64,000 nucleotides of DNA, taken from assembly GCA_000004985.1 (NCBI GenBank), contig GG738867.1. One strand, given 5' to 3'. This stretch comes from Naegleria gruberi. Taxonomy: Eukaryota. Positions 588 to 51,467 of this stretch are shown one piece after another; position 1 is the first letter of the stretch, and each line of letters opens with the position of its first letter. The translations under genes and the position numbers were made by a program. The notes beneath the pieces were generated by a model. The model was not told the origin of the DNA. It made no database searches and was given only the letters and a program-made list of their open reading frames with translations.

Positions 588-602
588 TTTCTGGCGCCAA
601 AT
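588..602. promoter_or_regulatory. E2F-like GC-rich element (TTTCTGGCGCCAAAT) about 100 bp upstream of the ATG at 492
   Basis: GGCGCCAAA core in a >75% AT context. It is a member of a motif family recurring in promoters in this window. Confidence 0.3.
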
Positions 603-639: not shown

Positions 640-2025
640 CTACCACCAACCTCCAACCTTAAATACATCTTTATACAATGCACGAGCTATTTCAATGAAT
701 TCACTTTGAACTTCTTTAGGAATGAACTCAAACGCCAAAATCTTAAATGATGGCCGTTTTGTTCGATTCTTGGCATCTGACTTGATGGCTTCTAAAATAA
801 TCACTCGATCACGTTTCAATTCATCGGATGCAAATTGAATTGCGTTTCCATCTTGTTGCACAGCTCGTAACACCAAATCTCTGTCATTTTTCAATATTAA
901 GGAAGCATATTCCAGAGCCATGCCTTCTTGTTTGACAGCTTCAAACATGACATCTCTGTCATTACTGCAAAATGAACCTCTGATTATATCAATTACAGAA
1001 CCAGAGTAGTATCTATAACTGTTTAGAGTTTGTAAAACTATTTCCTTTTCATTTTGTAGCTCAATAGATGCATATTCAAATGCCATTCCATTCGATTGAA
1101 GTGCTTTCATAACTATTTCTCTATGGTTTCTCAATTCGTGTGATGCAAATTCAAGAGAAATTCCATTTTGCTTAACAGCTTTCATTACAATTTCCTCATC
1201 TCTGTTAAATTCTTCTGATAAATATTCTAAAACAGTTCCTTTGGTTTTCACGCATTGTAAAACAAATTCTCTGAACCATTTCTTGTCATTTCTCAAATCT
1301 TGTGAAGGAAATCTGACAGCAATTCCATCATATTGAGCTGCTTTCATCAAAATTTCCTTGTCATTCCTTGCAATAGCTGACCATTTCAATATTTCTTCAG
1401 TTCCATTATACGATTTGCTTGTTTCCAGAGCTTTCAAAATCAAATCTCTATCCTCAGGAATATTCTCAAATATCCAATAAATCAATTTCCAATTTTCCAC
1501 AGCTTTTAACACAAATTGTTTGTTCTCCCACAAGTTGAGCACTTTTGCAATTCTAATTAACTTGTTTTCGTCTTTGAGTTTGAGAATTTCTTGAATAATA
1601 AACTTTTCGTCTCGTTTCCAATTCAATGAATTTCGAAAATTTAGAAAGGGTGAATTCTTGGAATGTTTTTTCATTGGGTTTTCTTCATCACTTTCATCTT
1701 CCAAATCTGAATCACTAGTTTCGTCTTCTTGATTACTTTCGTCTTGTTCATCTGAATCTGAATTTTCGTTATCAGAATTTTCTATGTTGGAATTTTCAAC
1801 GTCATGATGAAAGTGTGAAGGTTTCAAGTGAAAAGTTTCGAATATCGGTTTCATTATCATTTCAATTTTCAAAGCTTGGGGAACATCTTGGATTCGAATA
1901 GGAAGAAGTTTCGATTTGTGATGTATATCGAGAGAAATTATGACTGGTCCTGTGGTTGCATTTTGATCGGATTTGTTTTTCTTGTTCTTGTTGTGTGAAG
2001 CAGTATCTTGTAAGGATCGTTTCAT
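640..2025 (-). CDS. DUF4116-type repeat protein with an acidic Ser/Asp/Glu N-terminal tract
   Basis: 461-aa ORF with an ATG start. The C-terminal two thirds is about 10 tandem ~30-aa repeats (…L.YAS.ELKNDR[DE]IVL.AVKQ[DN]G.AL.FAS…) characteristic of the DUF4116 repeat family. Confidence 0.7.
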   Translation of the reverse strand: MKRSLQDTASHNKNKKNKSDQNATTGPVIISLDIHHKSKLLPIRIQDVPQALKIEMIMKPIFETFHLKPSHFHHDVENSNIENSDNENSDSDEQDESNQEDETSDSDLEDESDEENPMKKHSKNSPFLNFRNSLNWKRDEKFIIQEILKLKDENKLIRIAKVLNLWENKQFVLKAVENWKLIYWIFENIPEDRDLILKALETSKSYNGTEEILKWSAIARNDKEILMKAAQYDGIAVRFPSQDLRNDKKWFREFVLQCVKTKGTVLEYLSEEFNRDEEIVMKAVKQNGISLEFASHELRNHREIVMKALQSNGMAFEYASIELQNEKEIVLQTLNSYRYYSGSVIDIIRGSFCSNDRDVMFEAVKQEGMALEYASLILKNDRDLVLRAVQQDGNAIQFASDELKRDRVIILEAIKSDAKNRTKRPSFKILAFEFIPKEVQSEFIEIARALYKDVFKVGGWW

Positions 2026-3346: not shown

Positions 3347-5238
3347 TTGTTTGGACAACTGTTGATAATTAAAAAATCTGATACCAGTCAGTTTACAATG
3401 AGTCTGTCCTCTGGTAAGGTGTGCAATGCTGTCACAAGAAAAAAAATGCTTTCCCAAGATGATGAAAAAAGTTACCGAAATTGTCAAGAATTAGTTAAAT
3501 GGTTGGAGGAACAGAGGTGTCCACCCACGATTAGAAAAGGTAGGCTGCTCTAAGTGATTTATTAATTATTAATACTTTGGGTAAATCAGCATTACAAGAT
3601 AACGCTTGTGATGAGTGGATTTTGTGTAACAGTGATGAAGAAACTCTGTTGCAAGAATTAAATCTAACCAAATTACAATTACGCGCGTTGATGAGATTCA
3701 TCACTAACTCCTCCTCATCGTCAAGCAATAGCAGCAGCTCATCATCAAACTCTACCAAGAAAGATACACCACAAATTACTTCGAATGAATTTGACAACAA
3801 GTATAACAACATTGGTTTACTGGGAAGTGGAGGTTACGGAAAAGTGTATAAAGTGACGCTCAAGCATAAACCAAGTATTATGCGAGCTGTCAAGGTAATT
3901 GAAGATCGATACGATTTTACTGTTAACGAAGCATTGAAAGAAGTAATGCAAACAATGAAAGTTGCACACAAACATGTTGTGCAAATATATGATGTTACTA
4001 TTACTAATAATCGTTCACTGATGATTGAGATGGAATGTTTGGAATGTGGAAGTTTATACGACCATTTCATTAGGAAACGAGTTAAGCCTTCTGAAAGGAT
4101 AGCCATTTCAATCATTCAGCAGATATTAAGCGCACTTCAATTTATGCAAAAAAGTTTTAAAATGGTTCACAGAGATGTCAAACCAGCAAACATTTTGATT
4201 AGATCTATCGATTTAGACAAGGGTGAAATTGATGTTTGTTTGGCAGATTTTGGATTTGCAAGATCATTTGAACCTTCATCTCAAATATCTAACATTTACG
4301 GTACATTTTCTTATTTAGCTCCTGAAGTTAAATTAGTTTTGGACAATGATGAAATGAGATCAAAACAACCCTACTCAGTAGCTTCTGATATTTATGCATT
4401 AGGTGCAACAATGTTTTATCTAATGACGTTTAATCAAGCCAACCAAGCCAATCATCAATTATTGAATTCGCTAAACCATTACTCATCGAAACTGGTTGCA
4501 ATTATTTTGAAAATGTTAAGTGAAGATCCAATAGATAGACATTTAGAAATTACTACAATCAATATGTCACAAATTTCTACTTTTGGACATGATAACCAAG
4601 TCAAGGAATTAAAGAATCAAGTGACCGAAACAACCTTAGAATCTACAATTATTCAACATACTGCAAATCAAGAAAATATAGTTACTCAATATAATTTAGG
4701 TATGAAGTATATAAAAGGAGAAGGATGTGAAAAATCATTTGAAAAAGCATTTGAATGGTTTGAAAAATCTGCAAATCAAGGATATAATGAAGCCCAATAT
4801 AGGTTAGGTTTGATGTATTGCTTTGGACAAGGATGTAACGAATCATTTGAAAAAGCATTTGAATGGTATGAAAAATCTGCAAATCAAGGACATAATGAGG
4901 CGCAATTTAGGTTAGGTTTGATGTATTATCTTGGAAATGGATGTAAACAATCATTTGAAAAAGCATTTGAATGGTATGAAAAATCTGCAAATCAAGGAAT
5001 TGCTATTGCTCAACATATGTTTGGTGAGATGTATTTACAAGGAGAAGGATGCAAACAATTATTTGAAAAAGCATTTGAATGGTTTGAAAAATCTGCAAAT
5101 CAAGGATATAATGAAGCGCAATTTAATTTAGGTTCGATGTATTTAATTGGAGAAGGATGTGACAAATCATTTGAAAAAGCATTTGAATGGTTTGAAAAAT
5201 CTGCAAATCAAGGACACAAAATGCACAATTTTATTTAG
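3347..5238 (+). CDS. Ser/Thr protein kinase fused to a C-terminal Sel1 (TPR-like) repeat array; 2 exons (3347-3554, 3590-5238)
   Basis: Kinase motifs GSGGYGKVYKV, VKVIE, HRDVKPANIL, DFGFAR and APE are present. The 3577 ORF starts at TTG. The upstream ORF 3347-3553 joins through a 35-nt intron (3555-3589, GTAGGC…CAG) with correct phase, giving …PPTIRK|ALQDNAC…. From about 4690 onward there are repeated 36-aa Sel1 units (GC.KSFEKAFEWYEKSANQG..EAQF.LG.MY). Confidence 0.65.
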
Positions 5239-11900: not shown

Positions 11901-14823
11901 ATCCCTTGTTGGTTATTTGGGTAACCAATCTAGCTCTCTAGTTGGGCGTTGCTTGTACAGACTTCAGAGTGTTGGTGAAAGTGATGAATTGAAAATTGCA
12001 CTTCTTGATTTAATTTCAACAACAGTAGAAATTCAAAGAGGTTTGGCTGACTTGTTCTTGACCTCAACACCAGCAAAGATTAAAATCAAGAAGGAGAAGA
12101 ACGATGAAGAGCTCGCCCCTGGAGGTGTTCTTGTTACAATTTTAAAGATTATAGAAAATACTGAAAATTATATTGTAGAAAAGAGAACAAGTCTAGTAAG
12201 AAGTGCTTTGGCTGTCATTCAATCTATTTTCCAAAATGGAGAGAATAGATCCAAAATTACAAAGATTTTAAGAAATGACAGCTATTTCTGGAAATCAATG
12301 AAGAATATGTTTACCATCTTTACCAAAGATGAATCCACTAGTAAGAATATTGATATCCTTAGATCTATTACTTCAGTTATTGCTATTTGCTCTGTCGATA
12401 TGTACAATCTCAGAATATTGAAACAAGACCATAGTATGGAAACTGATATTGAAAAGACTCTCTTTGAAAAGGACTCTAAAACAATTCAAACTATACTCAA
12501 GACTTCAATTTCATTCATTATGAACAATATTAACTACTTGTCTGGTCTTATTCAAGATATTGATAGACTTTCAAAGAGAGATTCACAACAATTGGGAAGA
12601 GAAATTTTCTTCTCGGACTATCTCCTTGAAAGAAATACCAAGAAGGATGTTCTGTATGATACAGATAGAATTGTGAGATGGGAAACTGGTATTAGTGCCG
12701 AGTTACTCGACTCTCTATCATTGCTAAATCAAAAAATTGCCGTAGAGGAAGCATTTATTGCTCTGCTTAAATCCTTGCATGCCTTGTTTTCTGTGAGCTT
12801 GGAATCTCCTCTTCTCACAAGAGAGGAATCATCTGAAGAATACTTTTTGAATATTATTGATATTCTAGTTGTAGGACTCAAGATTTCAGAAGGTGATGCT
12901 ATGACCAAATATGTTTTCAACCCAACCAATGAATTCGGTCTCGATCTTGAAGTTTATGTTCCATTGCCAAAACTTTTGGATAACCTATTGAATACCTTCC
13001 ACATTGAAGTTGCTGCAATGCTAGCCAAGCTAATCCACAAATTCAACGCCAATTTCCCTCCAACAGATTTGATTGAAAAGCACAGCAGTTGGCTTTCTGA
13101 CCATTTATCAAAGTTGACACATTTATTACATACACAAGTTCAAAGAAAGAAGTCTAATGCAACAAAAGAAATTTTGGGTTGTCTCTTGATGTACTTTGTT
13201 GATTTGGATGAAGCTATTGGTGTCAGAACATGTTCCAAACTCACTCCAATACTTTTCCAAATCTTGAAGACATTTAACAGATACGAGCAATGCACAGAAT
13301 TGGCTATTTCGATTTTGGCTGTTTGTATCAAAGTTACTATCAATGAAGAATATGGAAACTATATTTGCAGAGAACTATGTGAATGTTTGACCACTTTTGA
13401 TGGAGTTGACGAACAACATTCTAAACACACCATTAACGTTCTCAATTTACTTTTGGCTTTCTCCACTACTCGAGCTGGAAGTTCAATGATGGTTGCCAAC
13501 AATATCTTACAAAAGTTTTCTGGTTGTACATTTTTAAGTTCTGGATGTGGAAAATATGCAGGTCAGACCTACTTTGAAGGAGAAAGAACTTACTGGCATA
13601 CTGCTTGGAGATATAGCTTGAAGATTATCACTACTCTCTTGAATTGTTACTATGTTGCAACTCAACCTAAGAGAAATATGGCCATGATGGATGAAGATAC
13701 AAACTATGGTCAATATCAATATTTTGTTCAACAAGTTCAAGATTTTTGTAATACTCACAGAAAGAGATTAGTTTTAGGTTTGGATGAATTATGGGATAAG
13801 AGACCTTTGACTTTTGCTCTTATTGAAGAAGTTGAACTCATTGGTATGCTAGTGAATGCACTTGCCAGATCTCACATTTTACCAAATTTACCTTACCTTG
13901 TCCAATCATCTCTTGTAGCAACAGCCAAGTGCGTGAATGCTGTTAAGCATTTTAGATTGATTTTGTCTGCTGTTACCCCAATCACACAACACGAAAGAAA
14001 ACTCCACGAAAAGGACAAACATTATATGGAAGAACTTCGTGCCTCCAGACCAACCTCAACAGGTACCAAGACTAGACGCCCTTTCAGAGAAAGAACAAAC
14101 TATGAAAACACCATTCCTTACAATTCTGAAGAGTCTCCATTTATTACCCATGCTACAGATGCTATCAAGAATCTTTATCAAGGAAGAGAGATGTTAAATT
14201 GGAATACTCAAATAGATTTGACAGTTTTTGGAACATTACAAAGCTTGGTTGCATCCATTCGTTGTTTGACCATTCTTCCTAGTGATGATGGAATTGAACA
14301 ACCTGTAGAGCCTGTTATTGTTCTTTCAATGCAATCCAATAGCCCTAATATTGAAACAATCTTCAAATGTGCTGAAGCTTGTGTTGATACCCTAAAGATT
14401 ATACCTTCGAGCAAATATAATACTGAACTAAGCAACAACAAGACAGGAAATGAGCTTGGCTCTTCAACTCCAACCGAGACACTCTCACCTTCATTCAGCG
14501 CAACTACTGAAAGAATGAGCAAAGAACAAGAGGCTATGATTAAGGCTAGACTTTTGGTGACACGTGTAGTGGTGGGTACTTTACAGGAATCTATCAATGT
14601 TATTGTTTCACACGTTTTGATTTATGAATTTATTGCCTATGGAGAGGAAAGTCAATCTGTTCGTGAAGTAAGAAATCACATGAAGGAACGTTTTGAATTT
14701 TTCCACAGAACTTGTGAGGGATTGTCGACGAAAAGTTGGTTCTTTATGAAGCATCCTGAACCTTTGCGAACAGTGCTCACACTTTTGAGAGATGTTATCG
14801 ACCTAGGTGGTTTAAAACAATAA
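8934..14823 (+). CDS. Large (about 1885 aa) alpha-solenoid protein of unknown identity (size and class of a Nup188/Nup205-type scaffold; not verified); 5 exons
   Basis: Exons 8934-9083, 9142-9264, 9310-9405, 9489-9869 and 9916-14823. Introns have GTATGT or GTAAGT donors and AG acceptors (lengths 58, 45, 83, 46 nt). All junctions keep the frame. The 9997 ORF starts at TTG and is open upstream to the intron, so it is the last exon. Confidence 0.7.
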
Positions 14824-14831
14824 TTTATAAA

Positions 14832-16919
14832 TTACAATTTGTCTAGTATGTTTCTGACTCGCTTAAAGTTACTAACTTTTCGTTCCTGCAAAGTAGATTT
14901 GTCTGATTTTAAGAGCTGGTTCTTAAAATGCACTCGTTCATCAATCAAGTGTTGTTCATAATTTTCCAAATCTTTCCTCATACCTCCACCATTCATTTTA
15001 ATGTAGTGACTTAGGTTTCCTAGTAATGAATAGAAGCAACTTGTGGATACTATTCCATTTTCACTAGTTGAATATGCGACAGGAACATATTCTGGATGCT
15101 TATGTTTCTTGCTTATAAAAGTAAGAGTTGGCTGACTGCTGTGGTTTGCAACTTTTGCAGATTCATGGAAATTGGAAAACGAAAGTTCCAAATTAGTTTG
15201 GTAAATTCTTTGGGGAATTGGAACGCCAAAATTATTGTATATACAATCTAGTCCTAGTGTAGAATCGTTACTTTCTGCTGGTTGAGGTATCAGCCCAATA
15301 GCGCTGAATTTGATTTCCTTTCTCCAGTTTTGTGTGCTTAATTTGTATTTCTGTAATAAGGTTTTATCCAATATCGAAGGGAAGTATGGAATTCTAGAAG
15401 ACAACTCTACATATGATGAAATGTCAACAGAGCAAGGTGCTGTCACATTCAAAGTGAATGAATTACCCCATGCACTTGAGCTTACACCTGAAAAGTACAA
15501 TCTTCTACCATCTCGATCGGTTTCAATAAGTGTTCCCTTCACATATAGCTTGGAAACAATTTGACTGTGCACATATTCGTTTCTAGATGGTCTATGAACT
15601 CCTTTAGGTTTAAAGTTTGCTTTTTTCACTTTGGAAATTGGTGGTTGACCCTCCAATCTAATCATTCTGTATCTGTATACTAAAGCTCCAAAATCACCTG
15701 TTTTTAACCTTTGTGGTTCTCTCCAATAATCGGTAACCCAATATAACCCATCATATCTATAACCTTTAGCAGGTGCATAGGCAGAATCTAATTGATAACC
15801 TCTCACAAGTCTGACTGGCATTCTTCTTTTCATACTCTCCACCAAACTGATATTATATCGATTAAGAGTTTGATTCTCAGTATCAGTACCACCTTGACCA
15901 GTATAAATAAAAACATCTCCATAATCTTCGTCTCCATATCCACCCATAGCCATAGCAACAATAGAATCAGATGGAACACCAAAATGCCCACTGATACCAG
16001 GTTGAGTTGGTGTGTGTGAACCTTTCCTTGAGCATGTTAATCTAGTTTCATAAACTGTAAAGACGTCATCTCTGTGACCATACACTCTACTTTTAATCCT
16101 GATAGGTTCTGTGAGTAGCTCATCTGCCTTCTCATCTCTGTATCGAATAGTTTTCCACTCGGAAGCTTTTCCCATAAACTTTTTGTCCTTCTCTGTAATT
16201 GTTGAACTTCTCTTTAGTTTCATATCAATTTCAAGTTTCTTTGTTTCCTGATCCTCCTCTTCGTCATGAGTGGCAACAACAAGTCTTGAACCAGAGTGAT
16301 GCAAAAGTTTGACAGATCCATTCTTTATATCCACAAAAGCATCTGTTCTTCCAGCTTCATTATTTTCCATGCAAATTGTAACAAGATCCTTATCTTTCAC
16401 TTGAGTGATGTCCTTACTTTCATCATAGTCAATTGCACAAAATGGTGTGGAATCTGAAATGAAAGCAGTCAAAGTAACTCTTTGCTTTTTATCATTAGCC
16501 TTCTCCGTCACTTGGTCAATTTTGGCTATCATGTTGCTCTCCTTTTCATCATCCTCTTCAAGTTGCAACTTTTTTGATTGTTTCCGTGATGATGCATTTT
16601 TCCATTCCTTCGCCGAAGTTAATTTTGCCTGTTTGGCTTTGGATACTCCATTAGTTGATGTTGTCTTTCTCTTGTTGTTAGTTTTATCACTTGTTGTTGT
16701 TGATGATTTTGATTTCTTATTATTGGTTGTCTTTGACTTGGTTATAACAGGAGAAGACATTAATTCATCAGAGTCATCAGATAATTCATTCATTTTCTTC
16801 TTCTTACTCCTATTAATCTTATATTCCTCATATTGATCCGATGAAGAAGAATCATCTAAATATTTTGTGTGATTCTTGTTGGTTAGAGTAGCCGTTTCAC
16901 CACTCCTGATAATTCTCAT
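14832..16919 (-). CDS. SRA-YDG domain protein (methyl-cytosine reader-type domain) with Lys/Ser/Thr-rich N-terminus and uncharacterised C-terminal half
   Basis: ATG at 16919. GISGHFGVPSDSIVAMAMGGYGDEDYGDVFIYTGQGG…PVRLVRGYQ…GYRYDGLYWVTDYW…RLEGQPP matches the SRA/YDG consensus (GG[YF].DD…IYTG.GG…PVRV.RG…YDGLY.V). No SET, RING or PHD domain was found. Confidence 0.75.
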   Translation of the reverse strand: MRIIRSGETATLTNKNHTKYLDDSSSSDQYEEYKINRSKKKKMNELSDDSDELMSSPVITKSKTTNNKKSKSSTTTSDKTNNKRKTTSTNGVSKAKQAKLTSAKEWKNASSRKQSKKLQLEEDDEKESNMIAKIDQVTEKANDKKQRVTLTAFISDSTPFCAIDYDESKDITQVKDKDLVTICMENNEAGRTDAFVDIKNGSVKLLHHSGSRLVVATHDEEEDQETKKLEIDMKLKRSSTITEKDKKFMGKASEWKTIRYRDEKADELLTEPIRIKSRVYGHRDDVFTVYETRLTCSRKGSHTPTQPGISGHFGVPSDSIVAMAMGGYGDEDYGDVFIYTGQGGTDTENQTLNRYNISLVESMKRRMPVRLVRGYQLDSAYAPAKGYRYDGLYWVTDYWREPQRLKTGDFGALVYRYRMIRLEGQPPISKVKKANFKPKGVHRPSRNEYVHSQIVSKLYVKGTLIETDRDGRRLYFSGVSSSAWGNSFTLNVTAPCSVDISSYVELSSRIPYFPSILDKTLLQKYKLSTQNWRKEIKFSAIGLIPQPAESNDSTLGLDCIYNNFGVPIPQRIYQTNLELSFSNFHESAKVANHSSQPTLTFISKKHKHPEYVPVAYSTSENGIVSTSCFYSLLGNLSHYIKMNGGGMRKDLENYEQHLIDERVHFKNQLLKSDKSTLQERKVSNFKRVRNILDKL

Positions 16920-16947
16920 TTTTTTTGAACGTTTAAATGTTTTTGAA

Positions 16948-16961
16948 ATTTGGCGGCAAAA
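16948..16961. promoter_or_regulatory. E2F-like element ATTTGGCGGCAAAA about 30-40 bp upstream of the SRA gene ATG
   Basis: TTTGGCGG core in AT-rich context. Confidence 0.3.
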
Positions 16962-16963
16962 GT

Positions 16964-17910
16964 TTATTCTCTTCTCTTGGTTGGCATGAGTGAGGCAACT
17001 CTACTCTTATCCTTTCTCTTGGTCTTTTTGATGAATTTGTTCATCTTGCCTGATTTTTTGATACCTTCAACTTTTCTTTCTTTGAGAATCTTTTTCACAT
17101 CAGAATCTTTTAAGAAGTAAGCTTGTTTACCCTTTTCTGAGATTAATTTCTTTTCTCTCTTGTAGAATGAGTCTTTGACCTCTGCAACGGCCTTTTGAGT
17201 TTCGAATTTCTTATTTCTGGTTTGAAGTCTTGAAATTTCTCTTTGAATTTCATTTCTGTCCTCATAGGTCAGTGATTTATCTCTTAATCTTTCTCTATTT
17301 TCGTCTATTTCATCCTTTAATTGATCGAAAACATGTTTATAATGGCCAGAAAATTGTTTAAACGATGATGGATCTGTATCACTTGCTGTTGGGTCAAATC
17401 TAGGATCACGTGACTTTTTTTTCACATAACCCAATCTCTTTGCAATGTCTGGAATGGATTTTGGTTTGAGTTTTGAACTCACTTCCTTTGGAGCATTCTT
17501 ATTTTTCCTTTCAATAACAGTCTTTTCACCCTTTTCAACTTTTTTCTTTGTTGGAGTATGATGTTTACCATTACGATGTCTATTTTGTTGTTGAAGATGC
17601 TTATCATTTGTTTTGAAATTTGATTTTGGTTTCATATTACTGAGTGCCAATCTTTCAGCAAATGAAAGTGTTTTTTCATCCTCCGAAGATGATTCTTTAT
17701 CCTCCTCTTCATCATCTTCCATTTCTTCATCTTCATCTTGTTCTTGTTGTTCGGAATTGTCAGCCTGTTGTTCCTCTTCATAGAGTGCATTTAGTTCATC
17801 ATCATTTAATTCATCCTCTTCATCTATTGGTTCTTGTTCCGCATCATCATATTGATTTTCCACCTCATCGTCATCGTATTGTGGTGCTGTTTGCTTTCTC
17901 TTTAGAAACA
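16964..17910 (-). CDS. rRNA biogenesis protein RRP36-like (DUF947) with an acidic N-terminus
   Basis: True ATG at 17910 (the ORF-track start 17923 is ATT). Acidic Asp/Glu run, then …KKSRDPRFD…FKQ…Y.FL…EI..LK…LRDKSLT..DR.E…E..RL..R…K..AEVK…KRE…G..YFLK.SD.K-type basic C-terminus typical of Rrp36. Confidence 0.55.
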
Positions 17911-18077: not shown

Positions 18078-18089
18078 TTTTTGGCGCCA
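18078..18089. promoter_or_regulatory. E2F-like element TTTTTGGCGCCA in the divergent promoter (RRP36-like <- -> 18294 gene)
   Basis: Exact TTTGGCGC core. Confidence 0.35.
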
Positions 18090-19137: not shown

Positions 19138-19183
19138 ATAATTTTTTTGTACTGTTAAAAAAGCTTTCCAAAATCACAGATAT

Positions 19184-19195
19184 TTGGCGCGAAAC
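19184..19195. promoter_or_regulatory. E2F-like palindrome TTTGGCGCGAAA about 50 bp upstream of the ATG at 19137
   Basis: Perfect TTTGGCGCGAAA. Confidence 0.4.
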
Positions 19196-33530: not shown

Positions 33531-33543
33531 CTGGCGCCAAAAT
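33531..33543. promoter_or_regulatory. E2F-like element CTGGCGCCAAAAT
   Basis: Same variant as at 588-602; it lies in the intergenic region upstream of the kinase gene. Confidence 0.25.
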
Positions 33544-33946: not shown

Positions 33947-33959
33947 TTGGGCGGGAAAT
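33947..33959. promoter_or_regulatory. E2F-like element TTGGGCGGGAAAT about 150 bp upstream of the kinase ATG at 34110
   Basis: GGCGGGAAA core. Confidence 0.3.
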
Positions 33960-34109
33960 CTTTTGGATTTTAATTCGCTAATTCACAATTCATCATCATC
34001 ATTATCCATTAACTATATAATTTATATTTATTTCTCTATATATTTGATTATTGTTTTCATAAATAATTCTTCATCATTAGACCGGAAAATAGTAAATAAT
34101 TTTCAAATC

Positions 34110-37100
34110 ATGGCATCAAGTGATGTTCCAATTGAAAACAACCATATATCAACAACAACAACATGGGGAAGTGCTGCTACTAATACAATAACATCAACTC
34201 CAAGACTATTGCCGAAACCTCCAGTAACACCAAGAGGAAGTACAAAGGGAAGTTTGACACCATTAACAACGACAACAACAACCACCACTACTCCAAATAG
34301 TACTATTGCTAATGTTGTTAATGTAGGGAAACAACCTCCTCCAATTACAAATATTATTAGAAATCGAATAGAATTGGAGGAAAGAGAAAAGGAAAATCAA
34401 CAAAATATTCATTTATCATCACCGTTAACATCACCATCATCAATGCATAATAGTAATACTAATAGCTATTCGAATGAATATGAAAATTCCTCATACCTTT
34501 TCCAAGATGAAGTTGAAGAATATAAAACACCACCCAAACAATCGAGCACATCAACTCCCACAACAGAATCTTCATCTGCACTTCCTCCTCCTCCACCTTC
34601 TCTTCCATCATCAATGTCTAAATTGGCTTTAAAGAATGGAAAGATCAATAATAATTATCAGAAAGTAGTGACGACCACCATGATGAGTCCTCCACCTCCT
34701 CCACCAATAACAGTGGTGAGGAATGCACCTATTGCTACAATAGCTAGTACTGCATCACCAACAGTTTCGAATAGTAGTAATACTACACAACCAGAATCAC
34801 CTCGATTGGAAAGATACAAACCACTTCCTTCTGTTGCTAAATATAAGAGAGATTCAGTGGTAATTGCTAATTTGGCCAGTTTACCACCTCCTCAAATAAG
34901 TGATATGAAAGCATTCCTTGATATTTATGACAATAAGATACTAATTGTTGATTCGAGAGCATTTAGTGGCAGTAAAACTGTTAGTGAGCAATTAATATCA
35001 AGATTCACATTACGTACATTGACCATTGACAGCATTTTAGGAAGGGGCTGTTCGGGATGTGTCTATTTATGTAGTGAGAATGGAGAAAAGTTGGCTGTAA
35101 AGATTGTCACTCCAACTGCTACTTTTGCACCTAATGTAAAAGCAGAGTATGAACTAATGAGGTCATTGAATCATGATAGTATCATGAAAGTCCATGATTA
35201 TTTTGAAATGTTAACCTCACTTCAACCTGGATCTTTATTTACAATGAAATATTATGAAAATGGAGATTTGAGAAGATTAATTGAGGATTTTGAAAAGAAG
35301 GAAAAGAAAATCTCTATTCATGTATGTATTTTTTATAATTTTTAATGTAATGTGGATTTACCTTTGAATGAAAATTGAAACAAACAGTTGATTTATGATT
35401 TCATTTATCAAATGGCTAGCTCTTTAAATTTTATTCACACTCAAAAAATAATTCACCGAGATTTGGTATGTTTTAAAATTAATCAATTTCATAACCATTT
35501 CATCAATAGAAAGTAAGTTTCCTCTTTTGTTCCTCTTACTAAATTTGATTAATAGCCTGAAAATATTTTTATGGAAAAACAAACAGATCACACTTGTAAA
35601 ATAGTATTGGGAGATTTTGGATTGGCTAAAACTATACAACAATCACATGGACTCTATTCGATTGTTGGAACAATGAATTACCTTTCTCCTGAAATTGTAA
35701 ATAATTCTGAATACGGAGCAGAAACTGATATATGGAGTTTTGGTGTTGTCTGTTACGAGTTAATGACCTTAAAGAGTAAGCAAGTTGAAAGAGTGGTTAC
35801 ACTCCGCCAACAAGGAGCTCTCGTCAATGACATGCTCAACAGATATCCTCAAGAGGTTACCATGATCGAGTTGATTGTTCAAATGTTGAACAAGAATCCC
35901 TCTGATAGACCATCAGCGGATGAAATTCTCAAACAACCATGCATGAAACACTTTATTGAAATGAAGAAAGTGTGTGAACATATTGTACAGAAGCTTACTG
36001 AAAGTTTGGCTTATTTCCAGAAAAATTACGAGTTTGAAAAATGTGTACAGATCAAAGATCTTCTACAGAGTATTAGTCAACTGAGAGCAGAGTCCTGTGA
36101 TTCGAGTAGACTCAGGATATCACTCTTCAATGCATATACATTCTTGGAAGAAAAATTACCTGAAAATATTGACCTAAAACCAACTAAACCAAAGGTCAAT
36201 TTGGCTTCCTCTCCAGAAAAGCAAATAACTACCAAGAGAAGATCTAATACCAAAGCTGGTGTAACAAGTCCATCTAATCAAAATCCTCCATCATCCAATA
36301 CAACAATAACTACCACCACCAATAATCAACCTAACTTTAGAGTAACCATCTCAGGAGATGAGGAATTTTCACATCATTCTGAGGAATCTGAAAATTCCTC
36401 TGGTTCCACCGATAGTTCAACTGCTGTCAAGAAAAACTCCAATGCAAATAGTTTAGAGCTCGAAGATCCAAATATTATTAGAAAGAGGTCATCCTCTCGT
36501 AATACTATTATAAATCAAATCAAGGGATGGGTTGGTTATGGAACAGAAAAGGAGAAAAGCTTTAGACAAACTGTGGTAATTAAGCCACCAGATCCAAACA
36601 AGTTCCAACACAGCCATCACATTGGAGTGGACGATAGAAATAGAGTGAGTGGAAATTATCCAAAAGATTTTGATTCAGTCTTACAAGACATGCATATGGA
36701 ACCAGTAGAAAGCCCAATTGTTGAAACTCCCACTCCTGTCATTAAAGAAGGAGAAGAGGAAGAAGAAATTAAACCAAGACTACACAGAAGATCAACAAGT
36801 CTATTCGAAAAGCCATCCCTCAATCAATCTCTAGATGAGATTACAACAGTCGCGAGTCCAACCAAACAACGTAGCTCGACTGTGAAAAGTAGTAATAGCC
36901 CTGTACCACCAGTGGAGATTTTAAAAGATCCTCCAAACTCACCACCAAGTACAACAACTCCTTCGACACCCTCTAACTCTGAAATACTCAAAATTTCTCC
37001 ACGATTTGGAAAGGCTGGAAAGTTAGAAGTCAGTCCAACTCCATTCGAAATTACTGGTACTCCTGTAAAATCTCCAAACACACAAAATGGTGTGGAAATT

Positions 37101-37214
37101 CCAAGTATTGGAGGTGCATTCAAACTCATCTCTGACCGAAGACAACAAGATATCATTGAAAAGAATATTGAAGAAGCTTGTAGCTCACCAACAGTTTCAA
37201 GAAGACGAAGGTAA
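34110..37214 (+). CDS. NEK-like Ser/Thr protein kinase with a long Ser/Thr/Pro-rich C-terminal tail; 3 exons plus a putative 3-nt micro-exon
   Basis: Exons 34110-35321, 35388-35465, [35510-35512], 35556-37214. Motifs GRGCSGCVYLC, LAVKIV, HRDL(K)PENIF, DFGLAKT, GTMNYLSPE and DIWSFGVVCYELMT. Introns carry GTATGT or GTAAGT donors. The first ORF's listed start is upstream of the ATG, and the true start MASSDVP is at 34110. Confidence 0.7.
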
Positions 37215-38268: not shown

Positions 38269-38282
38269 ATTTTGGCGCGAAA
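38269..38282. promoter_or_regulatory. E2F-like palindrome TTTTGGCGCGAAAA about 60 bp upstream of the EB1 ATG
   Basis: Perfect TTTGGCGCGAAA. Confidence 0.4.
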
Positions 38283-50561: not shown

Positions 50562-51467
50562 TTATTTTGAGATTTGGAATGGTTTTCTCTTTAAACAAAT
50601 TCTCTTCTTTTGATACTTTTTGCAAATTTTCTTTTGTTTCCAAATTTTGCAAATTTTCTTCTCAATTTTCCTAATGCACTTTTTGTAAACTTTTCGTTTG
50701 AGACATTTTGGCGGGAAATGTTGTTGTTGGGAACAGTATTTTTCCTTGTGGAATCGTACACATTGGAAGAATCTTCTCTTGTGTTTACAGACTTTCTTAC
50801 ACTTGAATTGGGCACAATATGAGTTTTTCCTAATTTGGAGACACTTCTTGAGGAGAATTCTTAGCTTGCAGAATTTAATTTTTCTGAATTTGACGCATTT
50901 CTTGGCGAAGGATACGATTTTGCACTTTTTCACGTGTTTGCATTTTTGTGGTTGGTAAGAATCGACTGATTTCGAATAAGAATCACAAATCTTTTTGGTT
51001 TCACACTTTCTTATTGGAACCTTCTTGTACTTTCTGCATACCTTTCGTTCTCCATGCTTGACACACTTTGGAATAAAGGTACGCTTTGCACAATAGTGAT
51101 GGAATGCCTTTTTAGTACAGATTCGTCTAGTTCCGTATTGATCACAAGTTGACCATCCTCTTCTATCAGCACATTTAGTTCTTCTGAATCCGAACTTGAT
51201 GCATTTTCTCTTTGGTTTTCCAAGTTTGATGCATTTGCAGAACTTTTTGAATTTGACACATTTGGTGATTTTTGAATGGTGTGCGCAAACTTTGAACTTT
51301 TTGAATTTCAAACACTTTCCTCTGATTATCTTCTTATGTAGACAGTGTTTTCTTCTTGGACTTGGATTATATTGGTCCACATTCGAATAAGAATCGACAG
51401 GAACAGAACAAGAAACTAAACTAATCAATAGAATAATGGCAAGAGTAAGAACCAGATGAGTTTTCAT
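50562..51467 (-). CDS. Secreted, extremely basic Lys/Arg- and Cys-rich repetitive protein (about 45 Cys and about 90 Lys/Arg in 302 aa)
   Basis: True ATG at 51467 gives MKTHLVLTLAIILLISLVSCS (signal peptide; the track start 51527 is GTG). It is followed by degenerate KC.KFKKF.KC / KKC.K.RK-type repeats up to the stop. Confidence 0.55.
   Translation of the reverse strand: MKTHLVLTLAIILLISLVSCSVPVDSYSNVDQYNPSPRRKHCLHKKIIRGKCLKFKKFKVCAHHSKITKCVKFKKFCKCIKLGKPKRKCIKFGFRRTKCADRRGWSTCDQYGTRRICTKKAFHHYCAKRTFIPKCVKHGERKVCRKYKKVPIRKCETKKICDSYSKSVDSYQPQKCKHVKKCKIVSFAKKCVKFRKIKFCKLRILLKKCLQIRKNSYCAQFKCKKVCKHKRRFFQCVRFHKEKYCSQQQHFPPKCLKRKVYKKCIRKIEKKICKIWKQKKICKKYQKKRICLKRKPFQISK
50705..50718. promoter_or_regulatory. 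Canonical E2F-type element TTTTGGCGGGAAAT; inside the 3' end of the Lys/Cys-rich ORF and about 270 bp upstream of the Nudix ATG
   Basis: Exact TTTGGCGGGAAA. Confidence 0.3.

What the first reader, a model, noticed from the sequence alone, without database searches (positions are those of the whole stretch)
14832..16919. Stand-alone SRA-YDG (methyl-cytosine-binding type) domain protein in an AT-rich protist
The SRA/YDG fold is the 5mC/5hmC flipping reader of UHRF1, plant SUVH/VIM and bacterial McrB-N/SRA-HNH. Here it sits between a basic low-complexity N-terminus and an about 330-aa C-terminal region with no recognisable RING, PHD, SET or HNH domain. Its presence implies cytosine modification (5mC or a derivative) is read in this organism. 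The partner domain is uncharacterised. An E2F-like site lies just upstream, as for UHRF1 in animals.
Basis: partly seen in the sequence, partly recalled or inferred. Interest (0 to 1): 0.6.

Follow-up and report, generated by a model that had tools for sequence, protein, structure and literature searches.

The report
SRA-only methylcytosine reader in Naegleria
This is a real, intact Naegleria gruberi gene for a protein whose only recognisable domain is an SRA methyl-cytosine-flipping reader; it is a second copy of a Naegleria-group family already noted in the literature, so it is useful but not very surprising.

Summary
The minus-strand ORF 14832-16919 (695 aa) carries a genuine SAD/SRA domain at about aa 271-428 (Pfam 101 bits against a cut-off of 30.7). 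Its predicted fold matches the solved SRA domains of SUVH5, TagI and UHRF1/2. No RING, PHD, SET, HNH or other known domain was found.

The window is from Naegleria gruberi. Published work reports two DNMT1 orthologues, TET-like enzymes and sparse, context-independent 5mC on silent repeats in this species. So the inference that cytosine modification is read here fits published data.

By alignment the domain is SUVH5-like. It has the thumb Gln306 and pocket residues Tyr328, Asp330 and Tyr339, and its finger loop is shorter than in the five best-matching solved SRA domains. I infer a thumb-only reader of 5mC that is indifferent to sequence context.

The rest of the protein is specific to Heterolobosea:
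- a basic low-complexity N-terminus;
- a conserved motif just before the SRA domain;
- about 175 aa with no confident fold;
- a conserved basic helical C-terminus.

A profile of the C-terminal part found only family members among 1.84 billion proteins. Naegleria has two paralogue clades. The other copy (XP_002680882) is already listed in the literature as an N. gruberi UHRF1 homologue. This copy appears to be missing from the reference protein set.

Verdict: a new member of a known kind (SRA-only readers); moderate interest.

The parts
14832..16919 (-). Complete single-exon coding sequence, 695 aa plus a TAA stop at 14832-14834.
   Evidence: ORF list. A metagenome contig, L001, is 99.5% identical in DNA, and its only indels within the gene are in-frame, of 3 and 9 nt. 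Orthologues exist in N. lovaniensis (52% identity) and N. fowleri (49%).
16275..16919 (-). N-terminal basic low-complexity region, aa 1-215, with K/S/T/N-rich stretches such as RSKKKKMN and NNKRKTT. It is probably disordered and may act as a nuclear-localisation or non-specific DNA-binding tail (inferred).
   Evidence: pI 9.3, with K 15%, S 13% and T 10%. pLDDT is below 35. Identity to orthologues is only 20-31%. The strain indels fall in this region.
16110..16274 (-). Conserved helical motif before the SRA domain, aa 216-270, with core MKLKRSSTITEKDKKFMGKASEW. The family consensus is RS..IT..D...GDA..W.
   Evidence: The motif is conserved in seven of the nine aligned family members; it is missing from the N. 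fowleri model P0003 and the truncated P0009. AlphaFold predicts helices at 220-256, with pLDDT 58-82 over aa 221-250.
15636..16109 (-). SAD/SRA (YDG) domain, aa 271-428. The Pfam match covers aa 285-425, which is 15645-16067.
   Evidence: Pfam E=6.9e-29. PDB sequence hits. Foldseek hits to SRA structures only. Identity to the Naegleria orthologues is 86-87%.
16002..16004 (-). Gln306, which aligns with SUVH5 Gln392. In SUVH5 this thumb-loop residue inserts into the duplex and pairs with the orphan guanine.
   Evidence: HMMER alignment to 3q0b. The residue's role is taken from PMC4740795. The codon was checked. A Gln is present in all eight family members that cover this position.
15903..15938 (-). 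Base-binding pocket segment GGYGDEDYGDVFIY. Tyr328 aligns with SUVH5 Tyr416, Asp330 with Asp418 and Tyr339 with Tyr428. Thr340 and Gln342 follow immediately.
   Evidence: Alignment to 3q0b. Pocket roles are from PMC4740795. These columns are invariant across the family. Codons were checked.
15570..15635 (-). Basic linker after the SRA domain, aa 429-450, with the conserved pattern KPK...RPSR.EY.
   Evidence: pI 10.7. Invariant residues P438, K439, R443, P444, R446, E448 and Y449 in the clade A plus Willaertia alignment.
15045..15569 (-). Lineage-specific middle region, aa 451-625. It has no confident predicted fold but contains short conserved islands: AWGNSF, W532..FS, TLGL..IYN..GVPI and AY..NG.xSTS.FYS.
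   Evidence: pLDDT is below 50 in both AlphaFold runs. Identity to the Naegleria orthologues is 38-39%. The islands are visible in the alignments. No homologue was found outside Heterolobosea.
14835..15044 (-). C-terminal helical module, aa 626-695. It ends in a conserved basic amphipathic helix, L677..RK..NF.R.R.I..KL.
   Evidence: AlphaFold predicts helices at 626-643, 645-671 and 674-694, with pLDDT 50-81. L677, R680 and R687 are invariant in all nine family members.
16953..16960 (-). E2F-type motif TTTGCCGC, within TTTTGCCGCCAAATTT, 34 nt upstream of the ATG. It lies in the 44-nt gap after the stop codon of the upstream RRP36 gene.
   Evidence: Sequence. Motif enrichment of 10 against 1.23 expected. 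Nine of the ten hits lie outside ORFs.

Best explanation
The gene encodes a nuclear reader of 5-methylcytosine in Naegleria gruberi that has no catalytic domain. Its SRA domain is expected to flip a modified cytosine out of the duplex. The base would sit in a pocket between Tyr328 and Tyr339, with Asp330 hydrogen-bonding to its Watson-Crick edge, while Gln306 of the thumb loop fills the gap. The finger loop, which in UHRF1 and SUVH4 probes the major groove and enforces preference for hemimethylated sites, is almost deleted here. The domain should therefore behave like SUVH5: thumb-only, indifferent to CG, CHG or CHH context and to hemi- versus full methylation, and probably tolerant of 5hmC. 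That behaviour would suit the published N. gruberi methylome, where all four CN dinucleotides are methylated equally and strand symmetry is weak. The basic disordered N-terminus would provide nuclear targeting and non-specific DNA affinity. The heterolobosean-specific C-terminal part, made of conserved short islands and a basic amphipathic helical end, would act as an adaptor or oligomerisation surface. It would connect 5mC-marked heterochromatin (young transposons, viral insertions, silent genes) to effectors, most plausibly the DNMT1 orthologues or the H3K9/H3K27 silencing machinery. Shown here: the gene is real, the domain is SRA, the pocket and thumb residues are conserved, the finger loop is short, no other known domain is present, and the family is restricted to this lineage. 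Inferred: binding specificity, nuclear location, the partners and the silencing role.
For: Domain identity rests on Pfam at 101 bits, PDB hits to SUVH5 and TagI at about 1e-17 and a confident fold that matches only SRA structures. Q306, Y328, D330, Y339, T340 and Q342 align with SUVH5 Q392, Y416, D418, Y428, T429 and Q431. The roles of Q392, Y416, D418, Y428 and Q431 are documented in PMC4740795. The pocket-wall segment has the same length as in SUVH5 (nine residues). The finger loop is shorter than in SUVH5 (+8 residues there), SUVH6 (+12), SUVH4 (+7), SUVH9 (+5) and TagI (+6). PMC4740795 links disengagement of the finger loop to thumb-only recognition that does not depend on methylation status. 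The pocket, thumb and loop length are conserved across the family members that cover them. The window is N. gruberi. That species has DNMT1 orthologues, TET-like enzymes and context-independent 5mC that coincides with H3K9me3 and H3K27me3. The SRA domain is under strong constraint, at 86-87% identity between Naegleria species against 38-40% for the tail. An SRA-only protein that promotes 5mC maintenance has a precedent in C. neoformans Uhrf1.
Against: No binding data exist for any member of this family. The SUVH5-like behaviour is inferred from alignment alone, and small pocket differences can shift preference, for example P307 where SUVH5 has S393. The C-terminal part gave no confident fold from an alignment of only 8-9 sequences. 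Whether it is an interaction module, a small novel domain or largely disordered is therefore open. No partner can be deduced from gene neighbourhood, because the neighbours are unrelated housekeeping genes. Transcription of this copy was not checked, and the gene appears to be absent from the reference protein set.
Confidence: 0.6

Rival explanations
1. It is a functional UHRF1 equivalent: an S-phase maintenance cofactor that recognises hemimethylated sites behind the replication fork and brings in or activates DNMT1, as UHRF1 does in animals and the SRA-only Uhrf1 does in Cryptococcus.
For: The paralogue XP_002680882 is listed in the UHRF1 column for N. gruberi in PMC10538959. An E2F-type motif lies 34 nt upstream of the ATG, in a window where the motif class is enriched and almost all hits fall outside ORFs. 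The N. lovaniensis orthologue has a similar T-run, GC-core, A-run element 10-25 nt before its ATG. The SRA-only C. neoformans Uhrf1 binds hemimethylated DNA selectively.
Against: There is no RING, UBL, tandem Tudor or PHD domain. The finger loop that carries the NKR residues is essentially deleted. PDB sequence similarity is higher to SUVH5 and TagI (about 1e-17) than to UHRF1 (about 1e-13). N. gruberi 5mC shows no CpG preference and only modest strand symmetry (r=0.25), so a hemi-CG maintenance logic does not describe its methylome. The exact E2F motif is absent upstream of the N. lovaniensis orthologue and of its clade B paralogue.
Confidence: 0.2
2. It reads oxidised methylcytosine (5hmC and beyond) or works with the TET-like enzymes, either shielding 5mC from oxidation or marking sites that are being turned over.
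For: The pocket is SUVH5-like, and the SUVH5 SRA binds 5mC and 5hmC with similar affinity. [quoted passage not shown]
Against: [quoted passage not shown] The pocket-wall loop has the SUVH5 length rather than the one-residue insertion that gives UHRF2 its 5hmC preference. There is no linkage to a TET gene in the window.
Confidence: 0.1
3. It is a redundant, drifting duplicate of the clade B gene with little function of its own. Only the SRA fold persists, and the tail is decaying.
For: The tail has diverged from the clade B motifs. For example, HWHGSSSEF.E.PL in clade B corresponds to NWRKEIKFSAIGLI here. Tail identity between Naegleria species is only 38-40%. The gene is absent from the reference protein set.
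Against: The ORF is intact in three Naegleria species and in a second strain, where the only indels are in-frame. The SRA domain is 86-87% identical between species, with every pocket residue kept. The conserved islands and the terminal helix persist.
Confidence: 0.06
4. It is a relic or eukaryotic adaptation of a bacterial modification-dependent restriction protein of the SRA-HNH type, used against foreign modified DNA such as that of giant viruses.
For: TagI, an SRA-HNH endonuclease, is one of the two best PDB hits (1.4e-17) and the top Foldseek hit. TagI also has a Gln at the thumb position. The Willaertia homologue sits next to a GmrSD_N (DUF262) gene.
Against: No HNH or other nuclease domain is present. 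There is no match to any PADLOC defence model. The gene lies among ordinary eukaryotic genes. The family has typical eukaryotic low-complexity tails.
Confidence: 0.04

Closest known systems
Heterolobosean SRA protein family, clade B (N. gruberi XP_002680882.1 / D2V4P2, listed in the UHRF1 column for N. gruberi in Funabiki et al., eLife 2023)
   Same: Both share the overall layout: a variable N-terminus, the pre-SRA motif RS..IT..D...GDA..W, a finger-less SRA domain with the same pocket residues, a basic linker, a lineage-specific tail and a terminal helix L..RK..(N/H)F.R.
   Different: The two are paralogues, not orthologues. SRA identity is 55-60%, against 87-88% to clade A orthologues. The tail motifs of clade B (YYYF.ERE.AI, HWHGSSSEF, RNEPDG.F.E) are degenerate or replaced here. 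This copy is not in the N. gruberi reference protein set.
Arabidopsis SUVH5 SRA domain (PDB 3Q0B/3Q0C/3Q0D/3Q0F/4YGI)
   Same: It is the best PDB sequence hit and the top Foldseek match after TagI, at 36-39% identity. It shares the thumb Gln, the Tyr/Tyr sandwich, the Asp, the Gln after YTG and a nine-residue pocket wall. It uses no finger loop, which in SUVH5 goes with binding in any context and any methylation status.
   Different: SUVH5 joins the SRA domain to pre-SET, SET and post-SET domains that methylate H3K9. This protein has no SET or other catalytic domain. Its finger loop is shorter still, by eight residues.
UHRF1/UHRF2 (animals)
   Same: They share the SRA fold and base-flipping pocket. 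The E2F-type promoter motif recalls E2F control of UHRF1; that control is my own recollection and was not verified here.
   Different: This protein has no UBL, tandem Tudor, PHD or RING domain and no NKR finger. The HMMER alignment to human UHRF1 breaks into two stretches and, over the finger-loop region, starts only at query residue 73 of the fragment, aa 365.
Cryptococcus neoformans Uhrf1 (CNAG_00677), an SRA-only protein
   Same: It is a eukaryotic protein with an SRA domain but no Tudor or RING domain, and it supports 5mC maintenance in parallel with H3K9 methylation. It is the nearest functional precedent for a stand-alone SRA reader.
   Different: It binds hemimethylated CG selectively and serves a strictly CG, DNMT5-based system. 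Sequence relationship outside the SRA domain was not tested. The Naegleria tail has no homologue outside Heterolobosea.
Bacterial SRA-HNH endonucleases (TagI, PDB 6GHS)
   Same: SRA similarity is as high as to SUVH5 (1.4e-17). TagI has a thumb Gln and a short finger loop.
   Different: TagI has a C-terminal HNH nuclease domain and is a dimeric restriction enzyme. No nuclease domain is present here.

Membership tests
SAD/SRA (YDG) domain, Pfam PF02182 | Profile match above the curated gathering score | tested here: met
   101 bits against a cut-off of 30.7, E=6.9e-29, covering profile positions 9-148 of 148. All nine family members match.
SAD/SRA (YDG) domain, Pfam PF02182 | SRA fold | tested here: met
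   In the AlphaFold model the 10-residue block means are 60-90 over about aa 300-430. The 43 best Foldseek hits are SRA domains of TagI, SUVH4/5/6/9 and UHRF1/2, each with probability 1.0. SRA-like domains of modification-dependent restriction enzymes such as MspJI follow.
SAD/SRA (YDG) domain, Pfam PF02182 | Flipped-base pocket (two aromatic residues and an acidic residue) and a thumb-loop residue that replaces the base | tested here: met
   Y328, Y339, D330 and Q306 align with SUVH5 Y416, Y428, D418 and Q392. Their roles are described in PMC4740795.
SAD/SRA (YDG) domain, Pfam PF02182 | Preferential binding of 5mC-containing DNA | not testable with these tools
   This needs EMSA, ITC or fluorescence polarisation with defined oligonucleotides.
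UHRF1/UHRF2 family | RING E3 ligase domain, together with UBL, tandem Tudor and PHD domains | tested here: not met
   No Pfam family other than SAD_SRA matches at E<=1, and the same holds for all family members. The tail is not Cys/His-rich.
UHRF1/UHRF2 family | Long finger loop with the NKR residues that reads the hemimethylated CpG from the major groove | tested here: not met
   The loop between YTGQGG and the next helix is only about 8 residues (TDTENQTL) and is shorter than in the five best-matching solved SRA domains. The NKR residue identities for UHRF1 are from my own knowledge.
SUVH (SRA-SET) histone methyltransferases | Pre-SET, SET and post-SET domains C-terminal to the SRA domain | tested here: not met
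   No SET match in Pfam. A profile of the C-terminal part against PDB finds nothing better than E=0.7.
SRA-HNH / type IV modification-dependent restriction enzymes | A nuclease domain (HNH or PD-(D/E)xK) fused to the SRA domain | tested here: not met
   No nuclease family in Pfam. No hits in PADLOC or NCBIfam.
SRA-only UHRF1-like proteins (for example C. neoformans Uhrf1) | An SRA domain without RING or Tudor domains in a eukaryote that has a DNMT and 5mC | tested here: met
   Architecture. The organism is N. gruberi. Its DNMT1 orthologues and 5mC are reported in PMC12344493.
SRA-only UHRF1-like proteins (for example C. neoformans Uhrf1) | Selective binding of hemimethylated CG and a contribution to 5mC maintenance | not testable with these tools
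   This needs biochemical and genetic tests.
Heterolobosean SRA plus C-terminal module family (defined here) | The shared pre-SRA motif, finger-less SRA domain, conserved tail islands and terminal helix L..RK..NF.R | tested here: met
   Alignments. The tail profile retrieves only Naegleria, Willaertia, Acrasis and related ENA metagenome proteins, at E from 5e-53 to 3e-123.

The most novel reading that the evidence does not exclude
The heterolobosean-specific tail (conserved islands plus the basic terminal helix) is a new effector interface. It would couple a context-independent, thumb-only 5mC reader directly to the DNMT1 orthologues or to heterochromatin writers, without ubiquitin signalling. 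That would explain how Naegleria keeps non-CG, weakly symmetric methylation on repeats and viral insertions with only DNMT1-type enzymes. The two paralogue clades would divide this work, for example replication-coupled (this E2F-motif-bearing copy) against constitutive.
Probability: 0.2. Interest if true: 0.6.

Novelty: new member of a known kind. Interest (0 to 1): 0.35.

Why it matters
The Naegleria gruberi methylome was characterised in 2025. Methylation is sparse, repressive and independent of sequence context, and it is made by DNMT1-type enzymes alone, in a lineage that matters for reconstructing the ancestral eukaryotic state. The methylome paper (PMC12344493) does not mention UHRF1 or SRA readers. 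This gene and its paralogue are the obvious candidate readers. Their SRA domain is predicted to ignore sequence context, which matches the methylome and gives a direct biochemical test. The gene also appears to be missing from the reference protein set, so surveys that list a single UHRF1-like protein in N. gruberi probably undercount. SRA-only proteins and the presence of 5mC machinery in Naegleria are already known, so the finding extends known biology rather than overturning it.

Tried and rejected
1. Looking for a hidden domain in the C-terminal part found nothing. I tried Pfam at E<=1; Pfam on all nine family members; a profile HMM against PDB (best E=0.7); a profile HMM against 1.84 billion representative proteins (only the family itself); and PADLOC and NCBIfam.

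2. Two AlphaFold runs, on the full length and on the C-terminal part alone, gave pLDDT below 50 for about aa 440-625. With only 8-9 sequences in the alignment, this cannot separate disorder from an unmodelled fold. I therefore did not run a fold search on that part.

3. Gene neighbourhood gave no lead. No DNMT, TET/JBP or chromatin gene lies in the 64-kb window.

4. Conservation of the E2F motif is weak. The exact motif is absent from the N. lovaniensis orthologue locus, where only a one-mismatch look-alike lies 10-25 nt before the ATG. It is also absent from the N. lovaniensis clade B locus. In Willaertia the only sites sit in front of the neighbouring FAN1 gene.

5. I could not read the reference annotation at this locus. 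Exact-sequence look-ups of neighbouring window ORFs and of the N. gruberi proteins P0014 and P0007 were not on record. The claim that the gene is missing from the reference set therefore rests on the homology search alone.

6. A literature search for E2F/DP in Naegleria gave no usable text.
Full report
**The observation**

The finding's coordinates match exactly one minus-strand ORF, 14832-16919, of 695 codons starting with ATG. At the window's base composition the chance of 695 codons without a stop is about 4e-23. A metagenome contig (L001, ENA ERZ929261) is 99.5% identical in DNA over 5.4 kb. Within the gene it differs by two substitutions and two in-frame indels of 3 and 9 nt, both in the N-terminal low-complexity part.

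Pfam finds one family, SAD_SRA (PF02182), at aa 285-425. The match has E=6.9e-29 and 101 bits against a gathering score of 30.7, and it covers essentially the whole profile. Nothing else matches at E<=1. Sequence search of PDB returns only SRA domains: SUVH5 (1.2e-17), the SRA-HNH endonuclease TagI (1.4e-17), SUVH6/9/4 and UHRF1/2.

An AlphaFold model built on a nine-sequence family alignment is confident over the SRA part, with 10-residue block means of 60-90 over about aa 300-430. Foldseek against PDB finds SRA domains of TagI, SUVH4/5/6/9 and UHRF1/2 as the 43 best matches, followed by the SRA-like domains of modification-dependent restriction enzymes.

**The organism**

The nearest relatives of the protein are all heterolobosean: N. 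lovaniensis (52%), N. fowleri (49%), Willaertia magna (37%) and Acrasis kona. The 461-aa DUF4116 protein encoded at window 643-2025 is identical in sequence to N. gruberi XP_002677424.1. The window is therefore N. gruberi. GC content is 30-38%.

The remaining ORFs are ordinary eukaryotic genes, including RRP36, kinases, EB1, Der1, a myosin and a NUDIX protein. None is a DNMT or a TET/JBP enzyme.

**Anatomy**

The protein divides into six parts.

1. aa 1-215. A basic, K/S/T/N-rich low-complexity region with pI 9.3 and pLDDT below 35. It is poorly conserved.
2. aa 216-270. A conserved helical motif with family consensus RS..IT..D...GDA..W.
3. aa 271-428. The SRA domain, 86-87% identical between Naegleria species.
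4. aa 429-450. A basic linker with the conserved pattern KPK...RPSR.EY.
5. aa 451-625. A region with no confident predicted fold, but with short conserved islands.
6. aa 626-695. Three predicted helices ending in a conserved basic amphipathic helix. L677, R680 and R687 are invariant in all nine family members.

**The SRA domain in detail**

The HMMER alignments to SUVH5 (3q0b, construct residues 362-528) give these equivalences:

| This protein | SUVH5 |
|---|---|
| Gln306 | Gln392 |
| Tyr328 | Tyr416 |
| Asp330 | Asp418 |
| Tyr339 | Tyr428 |
| Thr340 | Thr429 |
| Gln342 | Gln431 |

In SUVH5, Gln392 of the thumb loop inserts through the minor groove, replaces the flipped base and pairs with the orphan guanine. 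Tyr416 and Tyr428 sandwich the base, and Asp418 reads its Watson-Crick edge (PMC4740795).

The pocket-wall segment is nine residues long, as in SUVH5, without the one-residue insertion that enlarges the UHRF2 pocket. The finger loop between YTGQGG and the following helix is shorter here than in all five best-matching solved SRA domains. By comparison SUVH5 has +8 residues, SUVH6 +12, SUVH4 +7, SUVH9 +5 and TagI +6. The alignment to human UHRF1 breaks into two stretches and, over the finger-loop region, starts only at aa 365, after the loop.

PMC4740795 attributes hemimethylation-selective, single-base flipping to an engaged finger loop, as in UHRF1 and SUVH4. It attributes status- and context-tolerant binding to thumb-only recognition, as in SUVH5 and UHRF2. 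The pocket, the thumb Gln and the short loop are conserved in every family member that covers them. From this I infer a thumb-only, context-indifferent reader of 5mC that may also accept 5hmC. This is inference from alignment, not a measurement.

**The tail**

A profile of the region after the SRA domain (eight sequences) was scored against 1.84 billion representative proteins. It found only six proteins, all members of the same family: Naegleria, Willaertia, Acrasis and related metagenome sequences. The same profile against PDB gave nothing better than E=0.7. Pfam on all nine family members gave only SAD_SRA, and PADLOC and NCBIfam gave nothing.

AlphaFold on the tail alone again modelled only the terminal helices. 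The tail is therefore lineage-specific and of unknown structure. Because the alignment is so shallow, the low confidence cannot distinguish disorder with short binding motifs from an unmodelled small domain.

**The family and what was already known**

Naegleria has two paralogue clades.

- Clade A holds this gene, its 99% identical metagenome copy, and the N. lovaniensis and N. fowleri orthologues.
- Clade B holds N. gruberi XP_002680882.1, N. lovaniensis C9374_008967, a truncated N. fowleri model and an ENA sequence.

The Willaertia and Acrasis proteins resemble clade B in their tail motifs. XP_002680882.1 is the accession listed in the UHRF1 column for N. gruberi in Funabiki et al. (PMC10538959 source data). 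That paper marks some UHRF1 homologues as having an SRA domain but no RING finger.

No N. gruberi-annotated protein of clade A appeared in the homology search, and the cluster that holds the 99% identical sequence has a single member. This copy therefore seems to be missing from the reference protein set. I could not read the reference annotation at the locus to confirm this.

**Does the organism have the modification?**

Yes, according to published work. N. gruberi has two DNMT1 orthologues. It carries 0.28% methylated cytosine with no CpG preference and modest strand symmetry (r=0.25). There are 447 hypermethylated regions on repeats, young transposons and silent genes, and they coincide with H3K9me3 and H3K27me3. 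No 5hmC was detectable by nanopore sequencing (PMC12344493).

TET-like enzymes are well characterised, notably NgTet1 (PMC4678852). 5mC marks silent repeats, while 6mA marks a subset of expressed genes (PMC12695648). The context-independent methylome also fits the predicted properties of a finger-less SRA domain.

**The E2F-like site**

TTTGCCGC lies at 16953-16960 on the gene's strand, 34 nt before the ATG. It sits within the 44 nt that separate the ATG from the stop codon of the upstream RRP36 gene. TTTSSCGC occurs 10 times in the window against 1.23 expected, and none of 100 shuffles reached 10. Nine of the ten hits lie in the roughly 25% of the window outside long ORFs, several of them in front of start codons or in divergent promoters. 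The motif class therefore looks functional in this genome.

Conservation at this particular gene is weak. The N. lovaniensis orthologue has only a look-alike, TTTTGCGCGGGGAAAA, 10-25 nt before its ATG. The N. lovaniensis clade B gene has none. That Naegleria encodes E2F/DP is my recollection and was not verified here.

**Most likely mechanism**

The protein is most likely a non-catalytic 5mC reader that flips the modified base, with Gln306 filling the gap, regardless of sequence context. It would use its lineage-specific tail to oligomerise or to recruit effectors to methylated heterochromatin. The best precedents are two. One is the SRA-only Uhrf1 of Cryptococcus, which binds hemimethylated DNA and promotes 5mC in parallel with H3K9 methylation. 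The other, at the level of the domain, is SUVH5.

It is not a member of the UHRF1, SUVH or SRA-HNH families in the architectural sense, because their defining partner domains were tested for and are absent.

The rivals, in order of plausibility:

- a true hemi-CG maintenance cofactor;
- a reader of oxidised methylcytosine, or a TET-linked factor;
- a drifting duplicate of the clade B gene;
- a remnant of a bacterial restriction system.

Each carries specific evidence against it, given in the rival explanations above.

**Verdict**

The feature is real and correctly interpreted. It is a new (apparently unannotated) member of a known kind, with a lineage-specific tail of unknown function. Interest is moderate. 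It gives a concrete candidate reader for a recently described, unusual methylome, but neither the domain nor its presence in Naegleria is surprising.

Noticed in passing
window 594-601, 16953-16960, 18080-18087, 19183-19194, 33534-33541, 33951-33958, 38271-38282, 50711-50718: The E2F-type motif TTTSSCGC occurs 10 times against 1.23 expected. Nine of the ten hits lie outside long ORFs. Two are palindromic double sites (19183-19194 and 38271-38282); the second lies in the divergent promoter of EB1. This suggests a genuine promoter element class in N. gruberi.
   Followed up: partly
window 14832-16919: The gene appears to be absent from the N. gruberi reference protein set. The homology search found no N. 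gruberi protein of this clade, only the paralogue XP_002680882.1, although the window matches N. gruberi exactly elsewhere (XP_002677424.1 at 643-2025).
   Followed up: partly
window 14821-14834 and 16920-16966: Gene packing is very tight. The stop codons of the convergent 1574-aa gene (from its first ATG; 14821-14823) and of the SRA gene (14832-14834) are 8 nt apart, so their 3' ends must overlap. Only 44 nt separate the RRP36 stop codon from the SRA ATG, so the SRA promoter or 5' UTR overlaps the end of RRP36.
   Followed up: no
L002 4095-5582 (N. lovaniensis PYSW02000003.1): A 495-aa TnpB/Fanzor-like ORF (HTH_OrfB_IS605, OrfB_IS605 and Cas12f1-like_TNB hits) sits immediately upstream of the N. 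lovaniensis orthologue of the SRA gene. No ORF with such domains was found next to the SRA gene in the N. gruberi window.
   Followed up: no
L003 499-5665 (Willaertia magna JBEGDK010000070.1): The Willaertia family member is preceded by a GmrSD_N (DUF262) protein, a domain known from modified-DNA restriction enzymes, and by a FAN1 nuclease. A palindromic E2F-type site (2600-2611) lies a few nucleotides before the FAN1 start.
   Followed up: no
P0003 (N. fowleri model), alignment columns about 277-303 of A1: The N. fowleri protein model lacks the conserved pre-SRA motif (LKRS..TEKD...G.A.EW) through a gap of about 27 aa. This is probably a mis-called intron. P0009, the N. fowleri clade B model, is truncated at its N-terminus inside the SRA domain.
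   Followed up: no
window 33963-35345 and 35571-37214 (+): One protein kinase domain is split between two adjacent ORFs, with Pfam Pkinase positions 3-93 in the first and 135-262 in the second. This indicates an intron-containing gene rather than two genes.
   Followed up: no
window 640-2025 (-) and 3577-5238 (+): The window holds a DUF4116-repeat protein and a kinase with Sel1 repeats.
   Followed up: no
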